NCBI GenBank assembly: GCA_044229175.1
Contig: JBGATM010000001.1
Span: forward strand, 24,282 to 88,281
Direction of reading: 5' to 3'
Origin: Vicinamibacteria bacterium
Lineage (GTDB): Bacteria; Acidobacteriota; Vicinamibacteria; Fen-336; JAGNNV01
Length of the DNA: 64,000 nucleotides
In this document: positions 44,991 to 55,983 of the stretch, piece after piece
Layout: the number at the start of each line of letters is the position of its first letter
Position numbering within the stretch: position 1 is the stretch's first letter
Notes under the pieces: generated by a model
The model's database searches: none
What the model saw: only the letters and a program-made list of their open reading frames with translations
What the model was told of the DNA's origin: nothing
Position numbers and translations under genes: made by a program

Positions 44991-46028
44991 ATGTCCTCCC
45001 GCCTTCGACAAGCCGCGTCCACCCTGGTTCCGGTTCTTTCCGCCCTGGTCGTGCTCGCCGTCCTCGCGGAGGCGGCAACCCGCTTCCTGAACCGGTCGGG
45101 GGAGATCTACGACGTTGAAATGTACCGGTACTCCCGCCTCCTCAAGGAGGACGCGCCGCCCGAGGCTCCCGCGATGCATCACTGGCACCGCAAGAACGCG
45201 GAGGCCACCCTCCAGGGTGTCTCGATCCGCACGAACGAACTGCGGATGCGCGACAAGCCTCGAACCGAAAAGCCGGTCCCGGGGATCCGGCGGATTCTGG
45301 TCATGGGCGATTCCATCACCCTCGGCTGGGGCGTGCCTCAGGAACGCAGCTACAGCGCGGTGCTCGAGGCCCGGTTGGCGGAGCGTGGCGAGGGCCGCTA
45401 CGAAGTCCTGAATGCCGGTGTGGGGAACTACACACTCTCCCGGATGATCGGGTACTACGATTTCGCGCTGCAGCGGCTGGAGCCGGAGACCGTCGTCCTG
45501 GCCTTCTATCTCACCAACGCGAGCCGGGAGCAGGAATCCTCCCTGGCCCGCCTGCTGGATACGCCGCTGCACTTTCCGGTTTTTCTCTGGTCGCGCGGGC
45601 TGCGCGTCTACTCGCGATTCTCGAAGGCCGCGAGCTTCCGCGATTACTACCTCGATCTCTATCAGGACGGGGGATCCGAGTACGAGGTGTTCAAGGGGCA
45701 GTTGCGCGAGTTCATCGGCCGGGTGCGCGCGGAGAAGCGGAACCTCCTCCTGGTGAACCTCCCGGATGTCCGCTACGCGTCCACGAAGCCGTATCCGTTT
45801 CAAGCCGTCTCCGACCGCGTGCTCGCGATCGGACGCGACGCGGGTGCTTCGACCCTCGATCTGACCGGGAGCGTTTCGGACCTTCCACCCGAGGTCGCGG
45901 TGAATTCCATCGAGGACCGGCATCCGGCCGCGCTTGCTCATCAGCGGTTCGCCGACGCTATTCTTGACGCCTTGCGCGCGGCCGGCTTCGTCTCGATGCG
46001 ACCCGAATCCCAGGGAGAAATGAAATGA
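44991..46028 (+). CDS. SGNH/GDSL-hydrolase-family protein, TM-anchored (second paralog)
   Basis: N-terminal TM and an ILVMGDSITLGWG block. It is divergent from the first SGNH gene. Confidence 0.7.
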   Translation: MSSRLRQAASTLVPVLSALVVLAVLAEAATRFLNRSGEIYDVEMYRYSRLLKEDAPPEAPAMHHWHRKNAEATLQGVSIRTNELRMRDKPRTEKPVPGIRRILVMGDSITLGWGVPQERSYSAVLEARLAERGEGRYEVLNAGVGNYTLSRMIGYYDFALQRLEPETVVLAFYLTNASREQESSLARLLDTPLHFPVFLWSRGLRVYSRFSKAASFRDYYLDLYQDGGSEYEVFKGQLREFIGRVRAEKRNLLLVNLPDVRYASTKPYPFQAVSDRVLAIGRDAGASTLDLTGSVSDLPPEVAVNSIEDRHPAALAHQRFADAILDALRAAGFVSMRPESQGEMK

Positions 46029-46147
46029 GTTCGTTCTCGAAGAAAGTGTTCCTCCTGACCTTGGGGATAGCCCTCTTGCTCGCGGGCGGTCTGTATTTCC
46101 TTTCCCGGTCGTCGGGCGACCAGCCCTTCAGCTACGCGATCCAATGA
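46025..46147 (+). CDS. Unannotated 40-aa single-TM micro-protein (DltX-like?)
   Basis: MSSFSKKVFLLTLGIALLLAGGLYFLSRSSGDQPFSYAIQ. Its ATG overlaps the upstream stop (ATGA) and its stop overlaps the downstream ATG (ATGA). It is absent from the ORF track because it is under 60 aa. Confidence 0.45.
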   Translation: MSSFSKKVFLLTLGIALLLAGGLYFLSRSSGDQPFSYAIQ

Positions 46148-47280
46148 AGCGGGCGCTCGGCGCCCTCCTGGCTCTGGTCTTTGGCCTGGCCCTGGCCGAG
46201 ATCGCGGTTCGCCTGACCGCGCCCGACCGTTTTGGCTCGCTGCAGCTCCTCCCCTACGACGTCGTGGAGCCCGTGACCGCGGGCATGCGCATCAACGAGG
46301 CCACGAGCTATCTGGTCTTCGAACCCGAACTCGGGTGGGAGGTCGGGCCGAACCGCCATTCCCTGAACGGGCTCTACAACTCGGACGGATGGGGCGCGCG
46401 CGTATCCGTTTCGGCGCGCGAGGGTGTGACGCCCTGGGCGACCGCGTTCGGCGACTCCTTCACCCACGGCGACGATGTGCGCGACGAGGAGACCTGGGCG
46501 GCCCGGCTCGGCGCGTTGGGCCTCCCCACCGTCAACCTCGGCGTGCCCGGTTATGGCGTCGACCAGGCCTGGCTTCGCTATCGGAAACTGAAAGATCGGG
46601 TTCGCTCGCGTGTCGTCCTGATCGGCGTGATGGCCGACAACATCGCGCGCCACCTCAACCGGTATCGGCCGTTCATCACGCCTTCCGAGCGGGTCTTCTT
46701 AGTCAAGCCCAGGTTCGAAATGAGTGAGGGCCGGCTTCGGCTCGTGCCTTCTCCGTTTCAGCGGTTCGACGATTACGCAAGCCCGCCCGAGATCCTCCGA
46801 TCGGCGCTTCGGGAGGTGGGGCTCAAGGACCGCTTCTTCGATCCGCGGTTCTACGAGTCGAGCCCGCTCGATCGATCGAAGCTGTTCCGGATCGCCCGGA
46901 CCCTTCGGCTCGACCCCGCGCGGCACGCGGACTGGAGGCCGCTCTACGCGGACGAGGCCGCGGTGGAGCTGACTCTCGCCATCGTTCGGAGCTTCGTCGA
47001 AGAGGTGCGAGGCGACGGCCGCGAGCCCGTGGTGGTCTTCATCCCCGACCGGAGCGTGGCGCAAGACGTCGCTGCGGGCCGAGTCCCGCCCACCACCGCT
47101 CTTCTCGATCGATTGAAGGCACTCGGCTGTCCGGTCGCGGATCTGACCGCCCCGGTCGCCCGATTTGCTTCGAAGGCGGAGGCCCCCGCCGCTTTTCTGC
47201 CCCACTATTCGCCCGCTCTTTCCGAGGCGGTGGCGAACTACATCGCGGACTGGAAGAAGACGGAGAAGAGTCTTCCGTAG
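46144..47280 (+). CDS. SGNH/GDSL-hydrolase-family protein, TM-anchored, DltD-sized (third paralog)
   Basis: N-terminal TM (MKRALGALLALVFGLALAEIAV) and an AFGDSFTHGDD block. Length is 378 aa. Its 3' end overlaps the convergent MBOAT gene by 43 bp. Confidence 0.65.
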   Translation: MKRALGALLALVFGLALAEIAVRLTAPDRFGSLQLLPYDVVEPVTAGMRINEATSYLVFEPELGWEVGPNRHSLNGLYNSDGWGARVSVSAREGVTPWATAFGDSFTHGDDVRDEETWAARLGALGLPTVNLGVPGYGVDQAWLRYRKLKDRVRSRVVLIGVMADNIARHLNRYRPFITPSERVFLVKPRFEMSEGRLRLVPSPFQRFDDYASPPEILRSALREVGLKDRFFDPRFYESSPLDRSKLFRIARTLRLDPARHADWRPLYADEAAVELTLAIVRSFVEEVRGDGREPVVVFIPDRSVAQDVAAGRVPPTTALLDRLKALGCPVADLTAPVARFASKAEAPAAFLPHYSPALSEAVANYIADWKKTEKSLP

Positions 47281-48383
47281 ACCTCGACGCTGTCGGTGAG
47301 CGTGAACCGGAACGGTACCCAGAGCAGAGTGACGCCCAGGAAGGTCACGAGAATGGCTCCCGCGCGGTAGGCCGGCTGAGACTGAAGCTTCATCCGCTTT
47401 CGAGCGGGCAGGAGGGTCAGGAGTTTTTGCCGGTGGAACTGGTGAGCGGCGAGAAAGACCCCGTGCCCGAGGCCCCACAAGGCGAAGGACAAGCGGTCTC
47501 CGTGCCACATGCCGCACAGGGTCATGGTCGCGAGCGAGGCGAGGCTTCCGGTCAGCAGCGGGCGCTCGGCCAGCCATTTCACGTTCAAGGCCCGGCCCGA
47601 AAGAGGCATGAAGACCTGGTCGCGCAAAAACTGGCTGAGTGAAATGTGCCAGCGCGTCCAGAACTCGCTGATGCTTGTCGAGAGATAGGGCCAGTTGAAG
47701 TTCTCTCCGATGGAGTAGCCGAAAAGCCGCGAGGCGCCAATGGCGAGATCGCTGTAGGCGGAGAAGTCGAGGTAGAGAAAAAGGCTGTAGGCGAGGAGGC
47801 CTGCCCAGAGTTCCGCCGAGGGCGCGGTCCGGTTGAAGTTCGTGTCCGAGAAGGCCCGGAGAGGCTCCACCAGGGCGAGCTTCTTGGCGAGGCCGGTGGC
47901 GATGCGAAGCAGGCTCGCGAACAACTCGGTGCGGGAGAGTGTTTCCGGGACCACGCCCTTCGCGAAGCGAGCGTACGGTTCGATGGGACCGGAGAGAAAG
48001 GTCGGCGGGAAGAGCGCGTATTCGAGCGCCTTCCCCACGGGGAGCGGATCCGCGGCCTTCGAGGCGGCGCGGCACAGGAGGATCAGGCGGAAGGAAACGT
48101 AGGACAGTCCGACCACCTGAAACGCCGGGAGGTGCGCGTACTTGTTGAGGAGCAGACCGAGGAGGGCGAGGCCGATGGCCACCGTGATCCGAAAGGGTCC
48201 CGGGACGAAGCGCAGGGTCAGCAACACGGCCAGAACCAGCGCGAAGTTGATCGCGACCGAGGCCGCCATCGTCCCGTACAAGGCGAGACCGAAGAGCAGG
48301 AGGGAGGCCGCTCGATACACGGGAGGGACGATCTTCCAGTAGAGGACCGCGAAGACCAGGACCGCGAGTGTTCCTGCGATCAC
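47238..48383 (-). CDS. MBOAT-family membrane O-acyltransferase (DltB/AlgI/PatA-like)
   Basis: Polytopic, with the conserved MBOAT His region (WTRWHISLSQFLRDQVFMPL) and WHGDR near the C-terminus. Length is 381 aa. Confidence 0.9.
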   Translation of the reverse strand: MIAGTLAVLVFAVLYWKIVPPVYRAASLLLFGLALYGTMAASVAINFALVLAVLLTLRFVPGPFRITVAIGLALLGLLLNKYAHLPAFQVVGLSYVSFRLILLCRAASKAADPLPVGKALEYALFPPTFLSGPIEPYARFAKGVVPETLSRTELFASLLRIATGLAKKLALVEPLRAFSDTNFNRTAPSAELWAGLLAYSLFLYLDFSAYSDLAIGASRLFGYSIGENFNWPYLSTSISEFWTRWHISLSQFLRDQVFMPLSGRALNVKWLAERPLLTGSLASLATMTLCGMWHGDRLSFALWGLGHGVFLAAHQFHRQKLLTLLPARKRMKLQSQPAYRAGAILVTFLGVTLLWVPFRFTLTDSVEVYGRLFSVFFQSAM

Positions 48384-50059
48384 CCGGCTTCTCCCCGGTG
48401 CGATGCGAGGTACGCGTTCCGATTGTCATTGCGGGCGATCTTGCCGCTCGAGGTCTTGATCAGGTGGCCTTCCTTCACCACGAGCACCTCGGAAAGGGCC
48501 AGATCCATCTGCTGCAAGACGGATTGAACGATCTCTCTCCGGATGGCTCGAGCGCGCACGGGATCGTCGGCCTCCGGACTCTCCACCATGGCGACCGCGC
48601 TCTCCGTCCCCTTCGCTTCGGAGCGGGCGCCAAAGGCGACCACGCGGCCGGCCTTGACTCCTCGCACCGATCCCGCGATCCGCTCGACCTCGTTGGGGAG
48701 GAACTTGCGGCCGCCGACCACGATCAGGTCGTTGTCCCGCCCGAGAACGTACAGTTCGCCGTCCTGGAGGAAACCCAGGTCGCGCGTGAAGTACCACCCA
48801 TCGGCTCGACGAGCCGCGGTCTCCTCGGGCAGACCGAGGTACTCGGCGAAGAGGAAAGGCCCAGAGATCGCGATCTCGCCCACCACACCCTCGCTCACCT
48901 CCCGCCGTCCCTCGTCCACGATTCGGATCCCCACATCACGGATCGCCCGGCCCGACGATGCGAGGACGCGGCGGGTGCTGGGGGCGGGCGCCACCGCGAG
49001 CGGACGGCCTCCGGGTTCGAGACGGGTTCCATCGACATCGACCCGTCGCGGACCGGCGCCGTCGGTCTGGGTGACCGCGAAGACGTTCTCGGCCATGGCG
49101 TACGAGGCCTGGATCGAACCGGCCCGAAAGCCGCGACTCGCGAAGGCTTCGACGAAGCGGTCCATGGACGAGGGCATCACCACCTCCGAGCAGTTCACAA
49201 TCGCGCGAATGCCCTCGAGGGAGGAGGGAGGGACGGCGCCGGCTGCCGCGCCGTGGCGATCCGCGAGAAGGGCGAAGGCGAAGTTCGGCCACCAGGAGAG
49301 GGAAGCCTGCGCCGCCCCCATGTCCTCCACGAATCCGAGGGGATTCAGGATGAAGGACTCGGGCGTCATCGAGCGGCACGAGACTCCGTGGCTGAGCGGC
49401 AGCAGAAACGAGGTCAGAAGCCCCATGTCGTGATAGAGCGGAAGCCAGGTCGCGATGAGGTCGCGGGCGGGGTCGAGGCGGATGGCATTCGCATAGGCGG
49501 TCAGGTGATCGAGGACCGCGTCGTGGGTCAGGGCGACACCCTTGGGCACTCCCGTGCTTCCCGAGGAATGCTGCAGGAAGGCGATCGCCGACGACGGCTC
49601 GGGAGCCCTTCCCACCTGCGACTCCGCCTGCAGATCGGTCACGTCGATCCATCGGACCGCCCGGGTCGTCATTCCGAGCAGGCGTTCCCGCACTTCCTTC
49701 GAAGCCACCACCACGTCGGTCTGGTAGCGGTCGAGGAGCGCTTCGAGGTTTCGCACGTACGTGGGCACGTGCGTCTTGAACGTGGGCAGCGAGAGGTTGG
49801 CGGGCACGAGGTCGGCGGCCATGGCGGCCACGAAACTCGTCCACAGCTCCGGCGAGGTCGGACACAGCACCGGGACGACTTGCCCATGCCCGAGGCCCGA
49901 TCGCTTCAGCCGAAGCGCCGTCCCGGCGATGCGGTGCGCGAGGGCGTTCGCCTCGATCGTCTCCGGAGAGGCGCCCGCGAAGGAATACGCCGCCCGGCAG
50001 TCTCTCGAGGTGAGGGACCGAAGGATGGCGGCGGGGAGCGACTCTTTCGGGTTGCTCAA
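48380..50059 (-). CDS. AMP-dependent synthetase/ligase, fatty-acyl-AMP-ligase-like adenylating enzyme (DltA role)
   Basis: Adenylation core motif FLQHSSGSTGVPKGV. Length is 559 aa. Its stop overlaps the MBOAT start. Confidence 0.85.
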   Translation of the reverse strand: MSNPKESLPAAILRSLTSRDCRAAYSFAGASPETIEANALAHRIAGTALRLKRSGLGHGQVVPVLCPTSPELWTSFVAAMAADLVPANLSLPTFKTHVPTYVRNLEALLDRYQTDVVVASKEVRERLLGMTTRAVRWIDVTDLQAESQVGRAPEPSSAIAFLQHSSGSTGVPKGVALTHDAVLDHLTAYANAIRLDPARDLIATWLPLYHDMGLLTSFLLPLSHGVSCRSMTPESFILNPLGFVEDMGAAQASLSWWPNFAFALLADRHGAAAGAVPPSSLEGIRAIVNCSEVVMPSSMDRFVEAFASRGFRAGSIQASYAMAENVFAVTQTDGAGPRRVDVDGTRLEPGGRPLAVAPAPSTRRVLASSGRAIRDVGIRIVDEGRREVSEGVVGEIAISGPFLFAEYLGLPEETAARRADGWYFTRDLGFLQDGELYVLGRDNDLIVVGGRKFLPNEVERIAGSVRGVKAGRVVAFGARSEAKGTESAVAMVESPEADDPVRARAIRREIVQSVLQQMDLALSEVLVVKEGHLIKTSSGKIARNDNRNAYLASHRGEAG

Positions 50060-50197
50060 AACGTGGCGTACATGAACGCCGTTTCGCCGCCCTGGTCGAG
50101 GGCGAGGGCCAGGAAGAGGATGACACCCACGAGGACGATCAGGAACGTGGTCTGAATCGGCCGGGGCAGGCCGTCGAGATACTGCGCCGGGGCGAAG

Positions 50198-50440
50198 TCA
50201 GCGCGCAGCGGCATCGGTGAGAGCCACGCACTTGTCTATGGTGTCGAGGTCTTCGAGCCCCACCCCGTCGGTCGCCAGATTGAACTCGGTGTGGAGGAAG
50301 GCCAGGAGCCGCACCGCGGAGAAGGAGTCCACGAGACCCGAACTGAAGAGCGCTTCGTCACCCCCGAGATCGAGGTCGGGCTCGTTCAGGAGATCCTTCG
50401 CCACGAACTGACGGATTCGCTGCCGTCGCTCCTCGCTCAT
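50198..50440 (-). CDS. Acyl/peptidyl carrier protein (DltC-like)
   Basis: 80 aa from ATG (90 aa if the GTG at 50470 is used). The phosphopantetheine-attachment site GLVDSFSAVRLLAFL resembles the DltC IIDSF...LLL motif. Confidence 0.75.
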   Translation of the reverse strand: MSEERRQRIRQFVAKDLLNEPDLDLGGDEALFSSGLVDSFSAVRLLAFLHTEFNLATDGVGLEDLDTIDKCVALTDAAAR

Positions 50441-50470
50441 GGGCAAAGTATAGGAGACGGCCGAAGGCAC

Positions 50471-51016
50471 TCAGGCCGGGGGATATTTCGCCGCGAGCTT
50501 CTCCATGGTCTTCATTCCGCGGAAGGTGGCCTTGACCTTGAGGGTTCGTTCGAGGACCGCGTTCGAGATCTTCGATTGGCTCTGCCGCGTCCGACAGATC
50601 CAGTAGAGCTCCGCGCCGTTTGCGTGGAAGTCGTCGATGTCGGTCCGGAGCCCGGTGAGCGCGGCCCGGGTCGCGGCGGGAAGCGGCTCCTTGAGGAGGC
50701 CGACATTGAGCGCGGCCGCGGCTTCCATCTCCGCGGCAGGAAACGGACGGTAGCGGGCGATGGACGACACGCCCTCGAGGGACCGGACGAACGTCGTGAC
50801 CTCGTACCCGAGAACGTCTTCCAGCATCCGCTCGATCTTCCTCTCGATCGCGGCGGGTTCCTTGAGGCGTGTCTCGAAGATCACGTTGCCACTCGCGATG
50901 AAGGTCTCGACCTTCGCGAAGCCCAGGTCCTCGAATCTGGCCCGCAGGACCTCCATCTTCACCACATGACTGCCGCCCACGTTGATGGCGCGCAGAAAGG
51001 CCACGTATCGAGCCAT
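50471..51016 (-). CDS. DUF1697-domain protein
   Basis: MARYVAFLRAINVGGSHVVKMEVLRARFEDLGF...SGNVIF is typical of DUF1697. It sits 3 bp downstream of the potCD stop. Confidence 0.7.
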   Translation of the reverse strand: MARYVAFLRAINVGGSHVVKMEVLRARFEDLGFAKVETFIASGNVIFETRLKEPAAIERKIERMLEDVLGYEVTTFVRSLEGVSSIARYRPFPAAEMEAAAALNVGLLKEPLPAATRAALTGLRTDIDDFHANGAELYWICRTRQSQSKISNAVLERTLKVKATFRGMKTMEKLAAKYPPA

Positions 51017-51019
51017 GAG

Positions 51020-52822
51020 CTAGTCCTTTCCCGATTTCACTTCGGTCCACAGCCGATCGTGCAGGGCCGCGGCCTCGCCCAGATCCTCGAACGGCCGGAG
51101 CTGCTTCATCTGCGCCTCCGACGGGAACATGGCGCGGTTGTCCTGGACGGCTTGCGGGAGCAGCGCCCGCCCCGCGCGCGACGGCGTCGAGTAGCCCGTG
51201 GTGAGACAGATCTCCGCCGCGATCTCCGGTTCCATCACGAAGTCGAGGAATTCAAGGGCGAGGTCGGCATGCGGGGCGTTTTTCGGTATGGCGAGATTGT
51301 CCACGAACACCATGGCCCCTTCCCGGGGGATGGTGAAGCGCACCCAGGGCGCCTCCTTCATGATCTTCGCGATCTGCCCGGACCACGACTGCGCGAGCAG
51401 CACCTCGCCCGAGAGAACCGCATCGTCGAAACTCGCCGAGTCGTAAGCCCGCACCAGCGGCTTCTGGTCGATGAGGACCTTCTGGATCCGTGCGAGCGAC
51501 CCGGGGTCCCGCGTGTTCGGGTTGAGACCGAGCAGCAGCGCGCCGAAACCGATGGCCTCCCGGGCGTCGTCGAGCATGAGGATCCGGCCCTTCCACCTCG
51601 GATCGAGGAGCGCGCTCCACGAGTCGACCGATGCGACCTGTCGGGAGTCGGACGCGATCCCGGTCACCCCCCACAGGTAGGGAATGGAGAAGCGATTCTC
51701 CCGGTCCCAGTTCTGGCCGAGGAAGTCGGGCGCGGTGCCTCCGAGGTGGGGCAATCGGTCGCGGTCGAGCGCTTGGAGAACCCCCGCGCGGATCAGGGGC
51801 GCGAGGGTGTAGGTCGGGGGACAGATCACGTCGTAGCCGGGGTTGCCCGCGAGCATCTTCGACAGCAGCGCCTCGGCAGAGTCGTATACGTCGAGGTTCA
51901 CCTTCGCTCCGGTTCGCTCCTCGAACCTGCGAATGGTCTCGGGGGCGATGTAGTTCGACCACAGGTAGAGATTGAGCTCGCGCTTTCCCTGATGCTGCGA
52001 TCTCGCGAGGACCACCGGGGTGGCGAGGATCGACAATCCCGCGGCCATGGCCAGCATGGAGAGGCGAGGCCGGGACTCGATGAGCGCGGTCGCGAAGAGC
52101 AGGAGGGTGGTGGCCGCGAGCAGGATGGTCGAGGCGGCGGCGATCTCCGGAGAGAGCGAGCTCTTGAGCAGCGAGTAGATGTAGACGGGCAGGGTGGTTC
52201 CGCCCGCCCCCGAGACGAAGGAGGTCACCACGTAGTCGTCGATGGAGAGCGAGAAGGTGAGCAGGGCCGCGGCCACGAGGCCGGGGGCGAGGAGCGGCAG
52301 GGTGACCCGACGAAACACCTGCCCGGCCGAGGCGCCCAGGTCGGCGGCGGCCTCCTCGACATCCACCGGCAAGGCGTGCGCGCGCGCGCGGATCACGAAG
52401 AACGCGAAGGAGAGCGAGAACACCACGTGCGCCGCCACCACCGTGCCGAGGCCGAGGGGAATGAAGAGCCGGGAGAAGAAGGCGAGAAGCGAGGCTCCGA
52501 ACACGATCTCCGGGGTGACCAGGGGCAGGAGGAAGAGCGAGGCGGCCCGCGCGCGGGTCCTCTCGGGGGCGCCTCTCGATCCGAGCGCGGCCGCGGTCGC
52601 GAGGATCACGACGATGAAAGTCGCGGAAGCGCCCACGATCAGGGAGTTCTCCATCGCTCTCATCAGGGGCCCGTTGTCGAGCAGCTTCCGGTACCAGATG
52701 AGGCTCGGTCCGTCGAACGATGCGGACAGGCGCGAGCGCGAGAACGAGAACACCGCGAGGGCGAGAACGGGAAGGTGAAGGAAGAGCAACGTCCCCACCA
52801 GCAGGGCCTGGAGCCGCTTCAT
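51020..52822 (-). CDS. Spermidine/putrescine ABC transporter permease (PotC-like) fused to a periplasmic polyamine-binding protein (PotD-like)
   Basis: Start at MKRLQALLVG (aa 228 of the ORF). A PotC 6-TM core with EAA-loop (AAADLGAS..FRRVTLPL) is followed by a hydrophobic segment (MLAMAAGLSILATPVVLA) and then a PotD-type solute-binding domain. The two parts share one frame with no stop. Length is 600 aa. Confidence 0.75.
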   Translation of the reverse strand: MKRLQALLVGTLLFLHLPVLALAVFSFSRSRLSASFDGPSLIWYRKLLDNGPLMRAMENSLIVGASATFIVVILATAAALGSRGAPERTRARAASLFLLPLVTPEIVFGASLLAFFSRLFIPLGLGTVVAAHVVFSLSFAFFVIRARAHALPVDVEEAAADLGASAGQVFRRVTLPLLAPGLVAAALLTFSLSIDDYVVTSFVSGAGGTTLPVYIYSLLKSSLSPEIAAASTILLAATTLLLFATALIESRPRLSMLAMAAGLSILATPVVLARSQHQGKRELNLYLWSNYIAPETIRRFEERTGAKVNLDVYDSAEALLSKMLAGNPGYDVICPPTYTLAPLIRAGVLQALDRDRLPHLGGTAPDFLGQNWDRENRFSIPYLWGVTGIASDSRQVASVDSWSALLDPRWKGRILMLDDAREAIGFGALLLGLNPNTRDPGSLARIQKVLIDQKPLVRAYDSASFDDAVLSGEVLLAQSWSGQIAKIMKEAPWVRFTIPREGAMVFVDNLAIPKNAPHADLALEFLDFVMEPEIAAEICLTTGYSTPSRAGRALLPQAVQDNRAMFPSEAQMKQLRPFEDLGEAAALHDRLWTEVKSGKD

Positions 52823-53604
52823 TCCTGAGCCCGGGCGAGAAAGCGGCCGAAGAGAAGGAAAGCGGAAAGCGTGAGCACGCTCAGGGTGAAGGCCATGGCC
52901 GAGCCGAAAGCCGGATCGCGGGCCGCGCCGAACTGGCTCGTGATCAGGGTGCCCACCCAGGCCGTCTTCGCCCCCCCGAGGAGATCCGGCACGAGCACGG
53001 ACCCGAGCGCGGGCACGAACACGAGCACGCAACCGGCCACGATCCCCGGGGCGGCGATCGGGATGACCACTTTCGCGAGGGTCTTCCAGGGGCTCGCCCC
53101 CAGATCCCGGGCCGCGTCGACGAGCGACGGATCGATGCGCTCGAGCGCCGCGTAGATGGGGAGGATCATGTACGGCAGCTCGACGTAGAGCTGGCCGATG
53201 GCGACCGCGGTGGTGGTGTAGAGGAGGCTCGGCGCCGGCGATCCGAAGAAAGCGAGGATCTGAGAGAGCAGGCCTCCCGCCCGAAGGAGGAACACCCAGG
53301 CGTACAGCTTCACCAGCACCGAGGTCCACAGGGGCAGGGTGACGAGCAGGAGAAAGGGGCCGCGTGACTGCGCCGGCACCGCGCGCACCAGCGCCCAGGC
53401 CACCGGGAAGCCGACGAGCAGTGTGGCCACGGTGGTGCAAAGGGCCAGCAGCAGGCTGCGCCAGAAGATCGCGGCATAGAGCGGATCGAGGAGCCGCAGC
53501 CACACCGAGCTGTCTCCCGTGCGGGAGAGAAGCATCAGCTGGGGACAGGCGAACAGAACAAGACCGATGACGGCCGCGGGAATCAGGAGCCTTTGCGCCT
53601 TCAT
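52819..53604 (-). CDS. potB: Spermidine/putrescine ABC transporter permease (PotB-like)
   Basis: Start at MKAQRLLIPAAV (aa 147 of the ORF), overlapping the potA stop. EAA-loop DAARDLGASPWKTLAKVVIP. Length is 261 aa. Confidence 0.8.
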   Translation of the reverse strand: MKAQRLLIPAAVIGLVLFACPQLMLLSRTGDSSVWLRLLDPLYAAIFWRSLLLALCTTVATLLVGFPVAWALVRAVPAQSRGPFLLLVTLPLWTSVLVKLYAWVFLLRAGGLLSQILAFFGSPAPSLLYTTTAVAIGQLYVELPYMILPIYAALERIDPSLVDAARDLGASPWKTLAKVVIPIAAPGIVAGCVLVFVPALGSVLVPDLLGGAKTAWVGTLITSQFGAARDPAFGSAMAFTLSVLTLSAFLLFGRFLARAQE

Positions 53605-54668
53605 CTCGAGAGCGCGATCCAGCACGAGGGTTCGATATCGAGGAAGACCCGATCGCCCGCCCGCACCACTTCCCGCGGCGAGACGTTGGCGACGAGCGTG
53701 GTTTCGCCCACGTCGACCTGGCAGCGCGTGGCCTCGCCCAGGTACCGCACGTCGGTGACCGTCCCCGCGATTCCGCCCCCCGAGCGGGACAAGGAGACGT
53801 GCTCTCCGTGAAGGCCGATCGTCACCTCCGCCCCGGCAGGTAGGTCCGCGATCTCGATCCGCGTGAACCCGAGGTCCACGACGGCGCCCCCCGCCCTGTT
53901 CTCGATCACCCGTCCCTCGAGGATGTTCTCCATGCCCACCAGCCGGGCCACGTAGACGCTCGCCGGGTGCTCGAAGATCTCTTCGGGTGGCGCGTACTGA
54001 GCGATGCGACCCTCCCGCATGACCGCGATTCGCGAGGAGCACTCGATGGCCTCCTCGAGGTCGTGGGTCACCAGCACGAAGGTGATGCCGAGGGAGCGCT
54101 GGAGCTGCACCAGTTCCGAGCGCATGGCCGAGCGCAACTGGGCGTCGAGGGCGGCGAGGGGCTCGTCGAGGAGCAGGATGTCCGGCTCGAGAACGAGAGC
54201 GCGGGCGAGGGCCACGCGCTGCCCCTGGCCCCCGGAAATTTCCGAGGTCGCCCGGGAATCGAAGCCCTCGAGGTGGACGGCGCCGAGGGCTTTCGCGACC
54301 CGAGATCGGATCTCAGCATCCGGCCGGTCGCGCAGCCGCAGGCCGAAGGCCACGTTCTCGAAGACCGAAAGGTGGGGAAAGAGCGCGTAGCTCTGGAAGA
54401 CGGTGTGAACGGGCCGAAGGTGGGCTTTCATCGAGGTGACGTCTTTCCCGGAGACCTCGATCCGTCCGGAATCCACTTCATCGAGACCCGCGACGAGCCG
54501 GAGGAGGGTGGTCTTGCCGCAACCCGACGGCCCCAGCAGGGTCACGAACTCCCCGGGCTGCACGTCCAGGCTCACCCGGTCGAGCACGGGCGTGCCCCCG
54601 CGCTTCTTCGAGACGGACTCGACGGCCAGCGAGCCGCGGACTTTTTCGGAAAGAGGAGCTTCGCTCAC
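53601..54668 (-). CDS. potA: Spermidine/putrescine ABC transporter ATP-binding protein
   Basis: Walker A GPSGCGKTT, signature ISGGQGQRVALARAL, Walker B LLLDEPLAALD, plus a C-terminal TOBE-like domain. Confidence 0.9.
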   Translation of the reverse strand: MSEAPLSEKVRGSLAVESVSKKRGGTPVLDRVSLDVQPGEFVTLLGPSGCGKTTLLRLVAGLDEVDSGRIEVSGKDVTSMKAHLRPVHTVFQSYALFPHLSVFENVAFGLRLRDRPDAEIRSRVAKALGAVHLEGFDSRATSEISGGQGQRVALARALVLEPDILLLDEPLAALDAQLRSAMRSELVQLQRSLGITFVLVTHDLEEAIECSSRIAVMREGRIAQYAPPEEIFEHPASVYVARLVGMENILEGRVIENRAGGAVVDLGFTRIEIADLPAGAEVTIGLHGEHVSLSRSGGGIAGTVTDVRYLGEATRCQVDVGETTLVANVSPREVVRAGDRVFLDIEPSCWIALSR

Positions 54669-54792: not shown

Positions 54793-55077
54793 ATGGGTGA
54801 AGCACTTGGAATGATCGAGACCCGCGGTTTCGTGGCCCTCGTCGAGGCCTCGGACGCGATGGTCAAGGCCGCGAAGGTCGTGATCGTGGGCTGGGAGAAG
54901 ATCGGCTCGGGTTACGTGACCGTGATGTGCCGCGGCGATGTCGCGGCGGTGAAAGCGGCCACCGACGCGGGTGCGGCGGCGGCCCGCCGGGTCGGCGAGC
55001 TGGTTTCCGTCCACGTCATTCCGCGTCCGCACGACAACCTTCAGGACGTCTTCGCCATCGGCAAAGCCGGCAAGTGA
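54793..55077 (+). CDS. Bacterial microcompartment shell protein, BMC-H (PduA/CcmK/EutM family)
   Basis: [29 protein letters not shown]...VHVIPRPH aligns almost residue-for-residue with PduA. A strong SD (AAAGGAG) lies 7 nt upstream. Confidence 0.95.
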
Positions 55078-55145
55078 ACCCACTAGCGCGCGGCCTTCTG
55101 GCCTCGCGCGGCGGGTTCAGCGGAGAAGTCGAGAAGAGTTCATAG

Positions 55146-55430
55146 ATGCAGGTCGGTCGAGTTGTCGGCACTCTCGTCGCCACCCGCAAGGACGAGCGCC
55201 TGGTGGGGACGAAGCTCCTGGTCGTTCGCGTCATGGATCCCGCGTTCAAGGAAGAGCAGGGCTACGTGGTCGCGGTCGACACCGTGAACGCCGGGATCGG
55301 CGACCGGGTCATGCTCGTGGCCGGTTCATCGGCCCGCCTCGCCCAGGGCATGAAGGACGCGCCGGTCGATGCCGCCATCGTCGGAGTGGTCGATCAGGTC
55401 GAACTGGTCAAGTCCGCGACCAAGGCCTGA
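55146..55430 (+). CDS. BMC vertex protein, BMC-P (EutN/CcmL/PduN family), paralog 1
   Basis: MQVGRVVGTLVATRKDERLVGTKLLVV...DAAIVGVVD is the EutN_CcmL fold signature. Confidence 0.9.
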   Translation: MQVGRVVGTLVATRKDERLVGTKLLVVRVMDPAFKEEQGYVVAVDTVNAGIGDRVMLVAGSSARLAQGMKDAPVDAAIVGVVDQVELVKSATKA

Positions 55431-55433
55431 TCC

Positions 55434-55703
55434 ATGCAGCTCGGGATCGTGTGCGGGAACCTGGTGGCGAGCCGTAAGGACGAGCGCCTCGAGGGAATCA
55501 ACCTCCTGGTCATCCAGCCCATCCAGCCTGACGGCTCCGCCACCGGCAAGACGCTCGTCGCCACGGACGCGGTGGGCGCGGGTCCGGGCGAGAGGGTCTT
55601 CTGGGTCAAGTCGAAGGAAGCGGCAAACCCCTTCGAGCCCGTCGAGGTGCCCACCGACGCCACCATCGTGGGCATCGTGGACCTCGTCAACGTGGAGGCC
55701 TGA
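55434..55703 (+). CDS. BMC vertex protein, BMC-P, paralog 2
   Basis: MQLGIVCGNLVASRKDERLEGINLLVIQP...DATIVGIVD. It starts 4 bp after paralog 1. Confidence 0.9.
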   Translation: MQLGIVCGNLVASRKDERLEGINLLVIQPIQPDGSATGKTLVATDAVGAGPGERVFWVKSKEAANPFEPVEVPTDATIVGIVDLVNVEA

Positions 55704-55707
55704 AGGG

Positions 55708-55983
55708 ATGTTGATCGGGCGGGTGATCGGCAACGTCGTGGCCACGAAGAAGAACCTCAAGCTCGACGGCGAGAAGCTCCTGCTCGTGCAGCCCCTCGAA
55801 CTCTCGGGGGCGGCGAAGGGAACTCCCATCATCGCCATCGATCGAATGGGGGCCGGGCCGAAAGAGCGGGTCCTGTACACCCAGGATGGCCGCACCGCGC
55901 AGCAGGTCCTGGGACGGGGTGTCGCCGGGGTCGACGCCGCCATCCTCGGAGTGATCGACGAGATCGATTTCCGCCATGGATGA
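55708..55983 (+). CDS. BMC vertex protein, BMC-P, paralog 3
   Basis: Start at MLIGRVIGNVVATKKNLKLDGEKLLLVQP (aa 114 of the ORF); ...DAAILGVID. Confidence 0.85.
   Translation: MLIGRVIGNVVATKKNLKLDGEKLLLVQPLELSGAAKGTPIIAIDRMGAGPKERVLYTQDGRTAQQVLGRGVAGVDAAILGVIDEIDFRHG

What the first reader, a model, noticed from the sequence alone, without database searches (positions are those of the whole stretch)
51020..52822. In-frame fusion of PotC-type permease with PotD-type periplasmic binding protein
- A 6-TM PotC-like core with EAA loop is followed, without a stop codon, by a signal-peptide-like hydrophobic segment (MLAMAAGLSILATPVVLA) and a full PotD-like solute-binding domain.
- The extra segment would act as a seventh TM, placing the binding domain in the periplasm tethered to its permease.
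- There is no separate potD elsewhere in the operon.
- Tethered binding domains are known but uncommon in Gram-negative Pot systems.
Basis: seen in the sequence. Interest (0 to 1): 0.5.

Follow-up and report, generated by a model that had tools for sequence, protein, structure and literature searches.

The report
Polyamine transporter with built-in binding domain
One gene in a soil acidobacterium really does join a membrane channel subunit of a polyamine uptake pump to its normally free-floating capture protein, but the same fusion is conserved in related bacteria and occurs in several other lineages, so it is a genuine, fairly ordinary example of a known design.

Summary
Window 52822..51020 (minus strand) is one 600-aa ORF with four parts:
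- a PotC-type permease, aa 1-250, with six TM helices and an EAA loop
- a short Arg-rich loop and a seventh hydrophobic helix, aa 254-275
- a 7-residue linker
- a complete PotD-type binding domain, aa 283-600

It is the last transporter gene of a translationally coupled potA-potB-potCD operon. No other PotD-like gene lies in the 64-kb window.

It is not a sequencing artefact. More than 100 independent homologs at 50-92% identity have the same continuous ~600-aa architecture. At least 39 species-representative genomes, almost all Acidobacteriota, carry it as one ORF behind potA-potB.

More distant fused versions occur in Clostridium, Verrucomicrobiota and others, and a PotC-X-D fusion is catalogued for Mycoplasma.

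Most PotD ligand residues and all the PotC translocation-path and scoop-loop residues examined are retained. This points to polyamine uptake through a single binding domain tethered to the PotB/PotC heterodimer.

Two things remain open. The signal-peptide-like junction (TPVVLA|R) might be cleaved rather than kept as an anchor. The exact substrate is unknown, because the E36/D39 acidic position is never acidic in this family.

It is a new member of a known kind, of low to moderate interest.

The parts
53601..54668 (-). potA-type ABC ATPase (355 aa; ABC_tran + TOBE_2)
   Evidence: Pfam ABC_tran 1.7e-35 and TOBE_2. The best NCBIfam match is PotA NF006987 at 347.6 bits, below the equivalog cut-off of 482. 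Its stop overlaps the potB start.
52819..53604 (-). potB-type permease (261 aa), heterodimer partner, no fused binding domain
   Evidence: Pfam BPD_transp_1. PDB best hit is E. coli PotB 8y5i_B, E 2e-48. D226 is kept as D207, while F222, Y223 and K241 are changed to V, L and T.
51020..52822 (-). potCD fusion gene, 600 aa plus stop; the ATG overlaps the potB stop (ATGA)
   Evidence: Conserved as one ORF in homologs.
52073..52822 (-). PotC-type transmembrane domain, aa 1-250 (six TM helices)
   Evidence: Aligned to 8y5f_C residues 13-252. AF2 helices. Translocation-path residues are kept: E105 (PotC D108), D195 (D198), F139 (F142), L188 (L191), Y216 (Y219), and scoop-loop K220 (K223) (with PMC11414716).
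52280..52360 (-). EAA / coupling-helix loop, aa 155-181
   Evidence: Sequence VEEAAADLGASAGQVFRRVTLPLLAPG. Invariant columns are E157, A158, A159, D161, L162, G163, A164, V173, T174, L175, P176 and P180.
51998..52072 (-). Junction: cytoplasmic SRPR loop (aa 250-253) plus the seventh hydrophobic helix (aa 254-275, LSMLAMAAGLSILATPVVLA). This is a relic signal peptide acting as signal-anchor.
   Evidence: Hydropathy. AF2 helix 252-277, pLDDT ~88-91. The layout is conserved in 112 homologs with invariant L266 and P269. In split relatives the PotD signal peptide starts right after the potC stop.
51977..51997 (-). Short linker, aa 276-282 (RSQHQGKRE region)
   Evidence: Low conservation and variable length, up to ~6 extra residues in some homologs. 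AF2 pLDDT 67 for aa 271-280.
51023..51976 (-). PotD-type substrate-binding domain, aa 283-600
   Evidence: Pfam SBP_bac_8. PDB sequence hits to VcPotD1, PotD, SpuD/E and PotF at 1e-58 to 1e-49. Foldseek TM-score 0.89-0.93 (normalised to target) against VcPotD1 and PotD. Ligand residues mapped.
50471..51016 (-). DUF1697 gene 3 nt downstream, same strand. Probably co-transcribed, but not a conserved part of the system.
   Evidence: Pfam DUF1697 3e-36. Found downstream of potCD only in the closest relatives: L001, L005-L008, L010.

Best explanation
This is the membrane part of a PotABCD-type (type I) ABC importer for a polyamine or a closely related cationic amine. The substrate-binding protein is made as the C-terminal domain of the PotC-type permease.

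The six-helix PotC core ends in the cytoplasm. A short Arg-rich loop and a seventh helix, a former PotD signal peptide now used as a signal-anchor, carry the chain back across the inner membrane. The PotD-like domain therefore folds in the periplasm, held to the transporter by about 7 residues.

The complex would be PotA2-PotB-PotCD with exactly one tethered binding domain. This domain captures the substrate and docks on PotB/PotC. The PotC scoop loop (K220) then displaces the ligand into the acidic translocation path (E105, D195), driven by ATP binding in PotA, as in E. coli PotD-PotABC.

The fusion most likely arose by loss of the potC stop codon in a tightly packed potC-potD junction in an ancestor within Acidobacteriota, and it has been kept since.

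Shown: the fusion, its conservation, domain identities, retained residues and the operon. Inferred: the topology, the uncleaved tether, the substrate and the origin.
For: - Single ORF with both domains.
- The same architecture in 112 of the 120 top homologs at 50-92% identity. It is also present in 39 complete and 7 truncated species-representative loci, with potA-potB upstream in most fused loci (a few lack a detectable potA) and no separate potD within 6 kb.
- The seventh segment is confidently helical. It follows a conserved positively charged loop.
- PotC is six-helix in the solved complex, with its coupling helix cytosolic (PMC11414716).
- PotD ligand residues W34, Y37, Y85, D168, E171, W229, D257 and Y293 are invariant across the family. 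T35 becomes S, and W255 becomes F as in PotF.
- PotC path and scoop residues are retained.
- 30 of 113 family members have Pro at +1 of the would-be signal peptidase site, which argues that at least these stay uncleaved.
- Split relatives place the PotD signal peptide immediately after the potC stop, in frame, in 20 of 31 loci. One substitution would therefore create this fusion (the sample is biased towards in-frame pairs).
- Covalently tethered binding domains with an anchoring helix are established in OpuA (PMC7673798), and are stated to occur in some Gram-negatives (PMC8025302).
Against: - No experiment or coordinate-level model shows that the domain stays attached, or that a 7-residue linker can reach the docking position.
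- In E. coli the PotD N-lobe, where the N-terminus lies, sits over PotB rather than PotC.
- The query's own subclade has a good (-3,-1) site, VLA|R.
- The charge balance around the seventh helix alone is ambiguous, about +1.4 on both flanks.
- NCBIfam scores for PotA, PotC and PotD are all below the equivalog cut-offs.
- The E36 (PotD) / D39 (PotF) position is N, A, G or S and never acidic.
- Three of the four PotB gate residues differ from E. coli.
- For these last three reasons the substrate may not be spermidine or putrescine.
Confidence: 0.72

Rival explanations
1. Polyprotein reading. The hydrophobic junction is still a working internal signal peptide. Signal peptidase I cuts after VLA275, releasing a free periplasmic PotD made in 1:1 ratio with PotC, which keeps a seventh helix.
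For: - The junction has the n-h-c layout of a Sec signal peptide: RPR, then about 14 hydrophobic residues, then TPVVLA with Pro at -6, Val at -3 and Ala at -1.
- P269 is invariant across 38 diverse members.
- 83 of 113 members satisfy a simple (-3,-1) rule.
Against: - 30 of 113 members have Pro at +1 or otherwise fail the rule, yet keep the same architecture.
- The uncharged stretch averages 22 residues, which is anchor-like rather than the 7-15 of cleaved h-regions (the cut-off comes from general knowledge).
- Arg at +1 and Lys/Arg within +8 are unfavourable just after a cleaved Sec signal (general knowledge).
- A free binding protein limited to 1:1 with its transporter would be inefficient.
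- Small residues are common at helix ends by chance.
Confidence: 0.15
2. Same tethered importer, but the substrate is not a classical polyamine. It could be another amine, an acetylated or carboxylated polyamine derivative, or GABA-like.
For: - The acidic residue that holds one terminal amine (PotD E36 / PotF D39) is N290 here, and N, A, G or S in all 113 members.
- Q327 is replaced by F or I.
- PotB gate residues F222, Y223 and K241 are replaced.
- All NCBIfam equivalog cut-offs are missed.
Against: - Eight of the 13 PotD contact residues are identical and invariant, including D168, E171 and D257, three of the four acidic residues that contact spermidine's amines in the complex. Two more are conservative or PotF-like.
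- PotC acidic path residues and the scoop Lys are kept.
- The closest solved structures are all polyamine receptors.
Confidence: 0.2
3. Artefact: a sequencing or assembly error removed a stop codon or shifted the frame between separate potC and potD genes.
For: Split relatives differ from the fused form by as little as one stop codon.
Against: Continuous 599-601-aa ORFs occur in dozens of independent assemblies from four data sources at 76-92% identity, and in more distant clades. The junction itself is conserved in sequence.
Confidence: 0.01
4. Dual products: besides the fusion, an internal start at M255 or M258 gives a separate PotD precursor with its own signal peptide.
For: Two in-frame ATG codons sit at the start of the hydrophobic segment.
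Against: These Met positions are not conserved outside the closest relatives. No Shine-Dalgarno-like purine run precedes either ATG (read). The resulting signal peptide would lack a charged n-region.
Confidence: 0.04

Closest known systems
E. coli PotD-PotABC spermidine importer (PDB 8Y5F-8Y5I; PMC11414716)
   Same: - Same gene order: potA-potB-potC-potD.
- PotA, PotB, PotC and PotD are each the best solved-structure match.
- Six-helix PotC core and EAA loop.
- Scoop-loop Lys and acidic translocation residues retained.
- Most PotD ligand residues retained.
   Different: - Here PotC and PotD are one polypeptide joined by a seventh helix.
- E36 is replaced by Asn.
- W255 is Phe, as in PotF.
- PotB gate residues F222, Y223 and K241 are changed.
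- Identity is only about 30-35%.
Lactococcus lactis OpuA (OpuABC: TMD with C-terminal fused substrate-binding domain; PMC7673798)
   Same: A type I ABC importer whose binding domain is covalently attached to the C-terminal side of the permease through an anchoring transmembrane helix. The tether raises the local concentration of the receptor.
   Different: - OpuA is a homodimer and so carries two binding domains; here a PotB/PotCD heterodimer carries one.
- Different family (OTCN versus polyamine/POPT) and different binding-protein cluster.
- OpuA has an extra scaffold domain and CBS regulation.
- Its host is Gram-positive.
GlnPQ of Gram-positive bacteria (tandem fused binding domains; PMC8025302)
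   Same: Binding domains are tethered to the translocator. Linker length is functionally relevant.
   Different: - GlnP carries two binding domains in tandem, so the homodimer has four.
- Different substrate family.
Mycoplasma PotC-X-D fusion (MMSYN1_0195; NCBIfam NF043073; PMC4993169)
   Same: A spermidine/putrescine permease and its binding protein are encoded as one protein downstream of potA and potB. It is the catalogued precedent for a PotC-PotD fusion.
   Different: - The Mycoplasma protein is about 1021 aa, with an inserted domain of unknown function.
- The window protein is 600 aa and scores 177 bits against a cut-off of 1250, in two stretches.
- The host has no wall and no outer membrane.
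Lipoprotein PotD of Gram-positives and spirochetes (e.g. Treponema pallidum TpPotD, PDB 2v84)
   Same: The polyamine receptor is kept at the membrane surface rather than diffusing freely. Some fused homologs from other lineages even keep a lipobox after the seventh segment.
   Different: The anchoring there is by lipid on a separate gene product. Here it is by peptide bond to the permease, and there is no Cys in the junction.

Membership tests
PotABCD-type polyamine ABC importer (type I importer, polyamine/opine/phosphonate family) | Operon with a PotA-type ATPase, two BPD_transp_1 permeases with EAA loops, and a PotD/PotF-type cluster-D binding protein | tested here: met
   (domains); the best solved matches are PotC, PotD and PotB. 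Gene order is potA-potB-potC(D), with overlapping start and stop codons.
PotABCD-type polyamine ABC importer (type I importer, polyamine/opine/phosphonate family) | Scores above the curated NCBIfam equivalog cut-offs for PotA, PotC and PotD | tested here: not met
   PotA 347.6 against 482, PotC 171.1 against 326, PotD 200.3 against 582. It is a family relative, not an equivalog of the E. coli proteins.
PotABCD-type polyamine ABC importer (type I importer, polyamine/opine/phosphonate family) | Polyamine-contact residues of the binding protein and of the translocation path | tested here: inconclusive
   - Eight of the 13 PotD contacts are identical and invariant. T35 is S, W255 is F (as in PotF), E36 is N, Q327 is F, and S83 is P.
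- The PotC residues D108, D198, F142, L191, Y219 and K223 are all kept or conservative.
- Only one of four PotB gate residues is kept.
PotABCD-type polyamine ABC importer (type I importer, polyamine/opine/phosphonate family) | Binds and imports spermidine or putrescine | not testable with these tools
   Needs binding and transport assays.
ABC importers with a substrate-binding domain covalently fused to the permease (OpuA/GlnPQ type) | Permease and binding domain in one polypeptide | tested here: met
   Conserved in homologs.
ABC importers with a substrate-binding domain covalently fused to the permease (OpuA/GlnPQ type) | An additional membrane-spanning anchor between the cytoplasmic end of the permease core and the external binding domain | tested here: met
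   Hydropathy segment at aa 254-275. AF2 helix 252-277, pLDDT ~88-91. Conserved across the family.
ABC importers with a substrate-binding domain covalently fused to the permease (OpuA/GlnPQ type) | The mature protein stays uncleaved, so the domain is truly tethered | not testable with these tools
   Only indirect evidence is available. 30 of 113 members have Pro at +1 of the candidate site, while 83 of 113, including the query, fit the (-3,-1) rule.
ABC importers with a substrate-binding domain covalently fused to the permease (OpuA/GlnPQ type) | Homodimeric permease giving two or four binding domains per complex | tested here: not met
   A separate PotB permease without a binding domain is encoded upstream, which implies one binding domain per heterodimeric complex.
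Mycoplasma-type PotCD (NCBIfam NF043073, MMSYN1_0195) | A protein of about 1000 aa with permease, inserted middle domain and binding domain, scoring above 1250 bits | tested here: not met
   177 bits in two stretches, with the best stretch covering only profile positions 13-241 of 1021. The window protein has 600 aa and no inserted domain.

The most novel reading that the evidence does not exclude
Within one protein family the relic signal peptide is an evolutionary switch. In the query's subclade (TPVVLA|R) signal peptidase I would still cut it, so a single gene would yield stoichiometric PotC plus free PotD. In the subclades with Pro at +1 it would be a permanent anchor. That would be a natural series linking free and tethered binding proteins, and a bacterial membrane-protein 'polyprotein' processed by signal peptidase.
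Probability: 0.12. Interest if true: 0.5.

Novelty: new member of a known kind. Interest (0 to 1): 0.22.

Why it matters
- It shows that covalent tethering of the binding protein, usually presented as a Gram-positive and archaeal solution, is the standard form of the Pot-type importer across a large part of the diderm soil phylum Acidobacteriota. It also occurs in several other lineages, probably through repeated fusion.
- Only PotC carries the domain, so the complex has exactly one receptor. This makes a simple natural system for studying how a tether affects docking and transport in a heterodimeric type I importer.
- There is an annotation lesson. NCBI names these proteins only 'extracellular solute-binding protein' and JGI mostly 'permease protein'. 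Genome-scale transporter counts therefore miss one of the two functions.
- None of this overturns current understanding.

Tried and rejected
The tool gives no coordinates or PAE, so I could not measure whether the 7-residue linker reaches the docking position.
- The afdb50 fold search for full-length structural twins was not available.
- The van der Heide & Poolman 2002 review and the OpuF paper are not held. Statements about them rest on my own knowledge.
- All 31 split potC|potD loci turned out to be in the same reading frame. I reject this as a biological signal. The 80 loci were ranked by tblastn with a fused query, which favours in-frame pairs that give one long alignment through the stop.
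- The positive-inside rule applied to helix 7 alone is uninformative, because both flanks have equal charge. The topology argument therefore rests on homology to solved PotC.
- DUF1697 as a conserved fourth component is rejected. It lies downstream only in the closest relatives.
- An internal start at M255 or M258 is rejected as a conserved feature.
- Monophyly of the acidobacterial fusions is unresolved. One NJ tree shows them as a clade sister to the split Thermoanaerobaculia-type loci. A second tree, with other lineages added, nests the split loci inside. Neither tree has support values.
Full report
**Observation**

Window 52822..51020 (minus strand) is a single 600-codon ORF. Its ATG overlaps the TGA of the upstream permease gene as ATGA, and that gene's ATG in turn overlaps the stop of the ATPase gene. 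The operon is:
- potA, 54668..53601
- potB, 53604..52819
- the fused gene, 52822..51020
- a DUF1697 gene 3 nt further on, 51016..50471

Pfam places BPD_transp_1 at aa 78-245 and SBP_bac_8 at aa 297-566 of the same protein. NCBIfam's best matches are PotC (aa 11-249, 171 bits) and PotD (aa 272-599, 200 bits). It also gives a weak hit to the Mycoplasma 'permease/substrate-binding protein' model NF043073.

Against solved structures:
- aa 10-249 align to E. coli PotC (8y5f_C residues 13-252 of 264, E 2e-37)
- aa 277-599 align to polyamine receptors: VcPotD1 1e-58, E. coli PotD 6e-56, SpuD/E, PotF

The 64-kb window contains no other PotD-like sequence (tblastn, next best E 0.36).

**Anatomy of the junction**

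Hydropathy gives six TM segments that match PotC, plus a seventh at aa 254-275, LSMLAMAAGLSILATPVVLA. AlphaFold2, run on a 38-sequence family alignment (mean pLDDT 81, pTM 0.69), predicts the following:
- a helix at 252-277 with pLDDT about 88-91
- a weaker linker (pLDDT 67 for aa 271-280)
- the first strand of the binding domain at 282-288

The binding-domain part superposes on VcPotD1, S. pneumoniae PotD and E. coli PotD with TM-scores of 0.89-0.93 normalised to the target.

Solved PotC has six helices and its coupling helix contacts cytosolic PotA (PMC11414716). That both PotC termini are cytoplasmic I take from the type I importer fold, not from the text I read. On that basis one further membrane crossing puts aa 276-600 in the periplasm. 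This is where a binding protein must be in order to dock on the transporter.

The junction looks like a signal peptide:
- a positive n-region (SRPR)
- about 14 hydrophobic residues
- a c-region, TPVVLA, with Pro at -6, Val at -3 and Ala at -1

**Not an artefact; conserved**

The word-indexed protein search returned 730 relatives. Of the best 120, 112 are 580-650 aa and carry both Pfam domains. Their identity to the query runs from 92% down to about 50%, and they come from ENA, Logan, NCBI and JGI assemblies. The named ones are Vicinamibacteria MAGs.

Aligned, all show the same layout:
- TM6
- an Arg-rich loop
- an uncharged stretch of 17-34 residues (mean 22), with invariant L266 and P269
- a small residue
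- a variable linker, lengthened by up to ~6 residues in some members
- the conserved start of the binding domain, LN(L/V)Y(L/I)WSNYI

A scan of one genome per GTDB species gave 80 loci. My own ORF check found:
- one stop-free ORF spanning both domains in 39 loci
- 7 more that cross the junction but are cut by contig ends
- separate potC and potD genes in 31 loci

The fused loci are labelled Vicinamibacteria, Blastocatellia, Terriglobia or unclassified Acidobacteriota. A few MAG contigs are labelled Clostridia, Acidimicrobiia or Byssovorax and nest among the acidobacterial sequences. The split loci are Thermoanaerobaculia, the Bacillus cereus group, Proteobacteria, Treponema, Chlamydiales and Verrucomicrobiota.

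potA and potB precede the fused gene in most fused loci; a few lack a detectable potA in the flank. None has a separate potD within 6 kb. DUF1697 follows only in the closest relatives.

**Wider distribution**

An exhaustive HMMER search of 1.84 billion cluster representatives found 27,832 relatives. The best 150 include about 24 representatives of 580-760 aa that match the query end to end at 28-44% identity. All of those with a C-terminal binding domain show the same 'TM6 - basic loop - hydrophobic segment - binding domain' junction.

Cluster look-ups name Blastocatellia, a Verrucomicrobiota MAG and cultured Clostridium (a 614-aa 'MULTISPECIES: extracellular solute-binding protein [Clostridium]', including C. 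botulinum).

The neighbour-joining trees carry no support values:
- In the first, the acidobacterial fusions group together with the split Thermoanaerobaculia-type loci as sister.
- In the second, those split loci are nested inside the fused group.
- The fused representatives from other lineages are scattered among split genes.

This suggests the fusion has arisen more than once.

In split relatives the PotD signal peptide often begins directly after the potC stop, in the same frame. A single stop-codon substitution would therefore create exactly this protein. The all-in-frame result itself is a selection bias of the tblastn ranking.

**Function**

The ligand-contact residues of E. coli PotD map as follows:

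| PotD residue | In the query / family |
|---|---|
| W34, Y37, Y85, D168, E171, W229, D257, Y293 | identical in the query and invariant in 113 family members |
| T35 | Ser |
| W255 | Phe, as PotF F276 |
| E36 (PotF D39) | Asn here; N, A, G or S across the family, never acidic |
| Q327 | Phe or Ile |
| S83 | Pro, Ser or Thr |

Y85 and D168 are PotD-type rather than PotF-type residues.

In the PotC part, the residues that line the spermidine path or gate it in the cryo-EM structures are kept (roles from PMC11414716):
- D108 as E105
- D198 as D195
- F142 as F139
- L191 as L188
- Y219 as Y216
- scoop-loop K223 as K220

In PotB, D226 is kept, but F222, Y223 and K241 become V, L and T.

All NCBIfam equivalog cut-offs are missed. 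The system is therefore best described as a Pot-family importer for a polyamine or a close relative, probably spermidine-like. One amine-binding position is altered across the whole family.

**Mechanism**

Inferred by homology to PotD-PotABC, the steps are:
1. The tethered domain closes on the substrate.
2. It docks on PotB/PotC.
3. ATP binding to PotA opens the permease outward.
4. The PotC scoop loop, with K220, enters the cleft and displaces the ligand into the acidic path.

Because only PotC carries the domain, the complex has a single receptor. This differs from homodimeric OpuA, which has two, and from GlnPQ, which has four.

One open geometric point remains. In E. coli the PotD N-lobe, which contains the N-terminus, sits over PotB. 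Helix 7 and the 7-residue linker must therefore be placed so that the domain can still dock. I could not test this, because the tool returns no coordinates.

**Rival: cleavage**

The query's subclade has a textbook (-3,-1) site, VLA|R. In all, 83 of 113 members pass a simple rule. The other 30 do not, typically PFLLA-P with Pro at +1, which is incompatible with signal peptidase I. Those members keep the same architecture.

The long uncharged stretch and the basic residues just after the site also favour a permanent anchor. I put cleavage at about 15%.

The other rivals are weaker:
- Internal initiation at M255 or M258 is unsupported. The Met positions are not conserved and there is no Shine-Dalgarno-like sequence.
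- A sequencing artefact is excluded.

**Comparison with what is known**

- Covalent fusion of a binding domain to the permease through an anchoring helix is established for OpuA (PMC7673798) and GlnPQ.
- A PotC-X-D fusion is recorded for the minimal Mycoplasma genome (PMC4993169) and has its own NCBIfam model.
- The plain PotC-helix-PotD form seen here is present in public databases under incomplete names. I found no paper describing it.

It is therefore a new member of a known kind.

**Verdict**

The finding is real and correctly interpreted, but it is ordinary in kind. Its modest interest lies in three things: conservation across Acidobacteriota, the one-receptor stoichiometry, and the unresolved tether-versus-cleavage question. 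Interest 0.22.

Noticed in passing
window 54793-55983 (+): Divergent from potA lies a bacterial-microcompartment shell cluster. It has one BMC-H gene (PF00936, 54793-55077) followed by three consecutive EutN/CcmL pentamer-type genes: 55146-55430, 55434-55703, and a third at about 55703-55983 seen only as an ORF. Three vertex-protein paralogs in a row in a Vicinamibacteria-like genome is unusual.
   Followed up: partly
window 44991-50470: A dlt/alginate-like O-acylation gene set. On the minus strand are an AMP-binding ligase (48380-50059), a small phosphopantetheine carrier protein (50198-50470) and an MBOAT membrane acyltransferase (47238-48383). On the plus strand are two SGNH/GDSL proteins (44991-46028, 46144-47280). 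It resembles DltA/DltC/DltB/DltD, but in a diderm.
   Followed up: partly
proteins P0123, P0134, P0172: Some fused PotC-PotD proteins from other lineages keep a lipobox-like motif right after the seventh hydrophobic segment (LGLAAC, LLSAC, LSLAGC). This suggests an internal lipoprotein signal that could be processed by Lgt/LspA, which would turn the fusion into a permease plus a lipoprotein.
   Followed up: no
L022 7212-7214, L032 7173-7175, L042 7186-7188 and 17 other split loci: In many genomes potC and potD are in the same frame, with only one stop codon between the end of PotC and the PotD signal peptide. Fused and split forms are thus one substitution apart. The sample is biased towards in-frame pairs by the way the loci were ranked.
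   Followed up: partly
L026, L035 (labelled Clostridia), L031 (Acidimicrobiia), L046 (Byssovorax): These MAG contigs carry fused genes that nest among acidobacterial sequences in the trees. The cause is either horizontal transfer or mis-binned contigs.
   Followed up: no
protein P0160 (728 aa): This representative has the PotD-like domain near its N-terminus (aa 50-351 match query aa 280-578), which implies the opposite domain order (binding domain first).
   Followed up: no
window 50471-51016 (-): A DUF1697 gene sits 3 nt after the potCD stop. The same placement is seen in the closest Vicinamibacteria relatives only. Its function is unknown, and any link to polyamine transport is untested.
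   Followed up: partly
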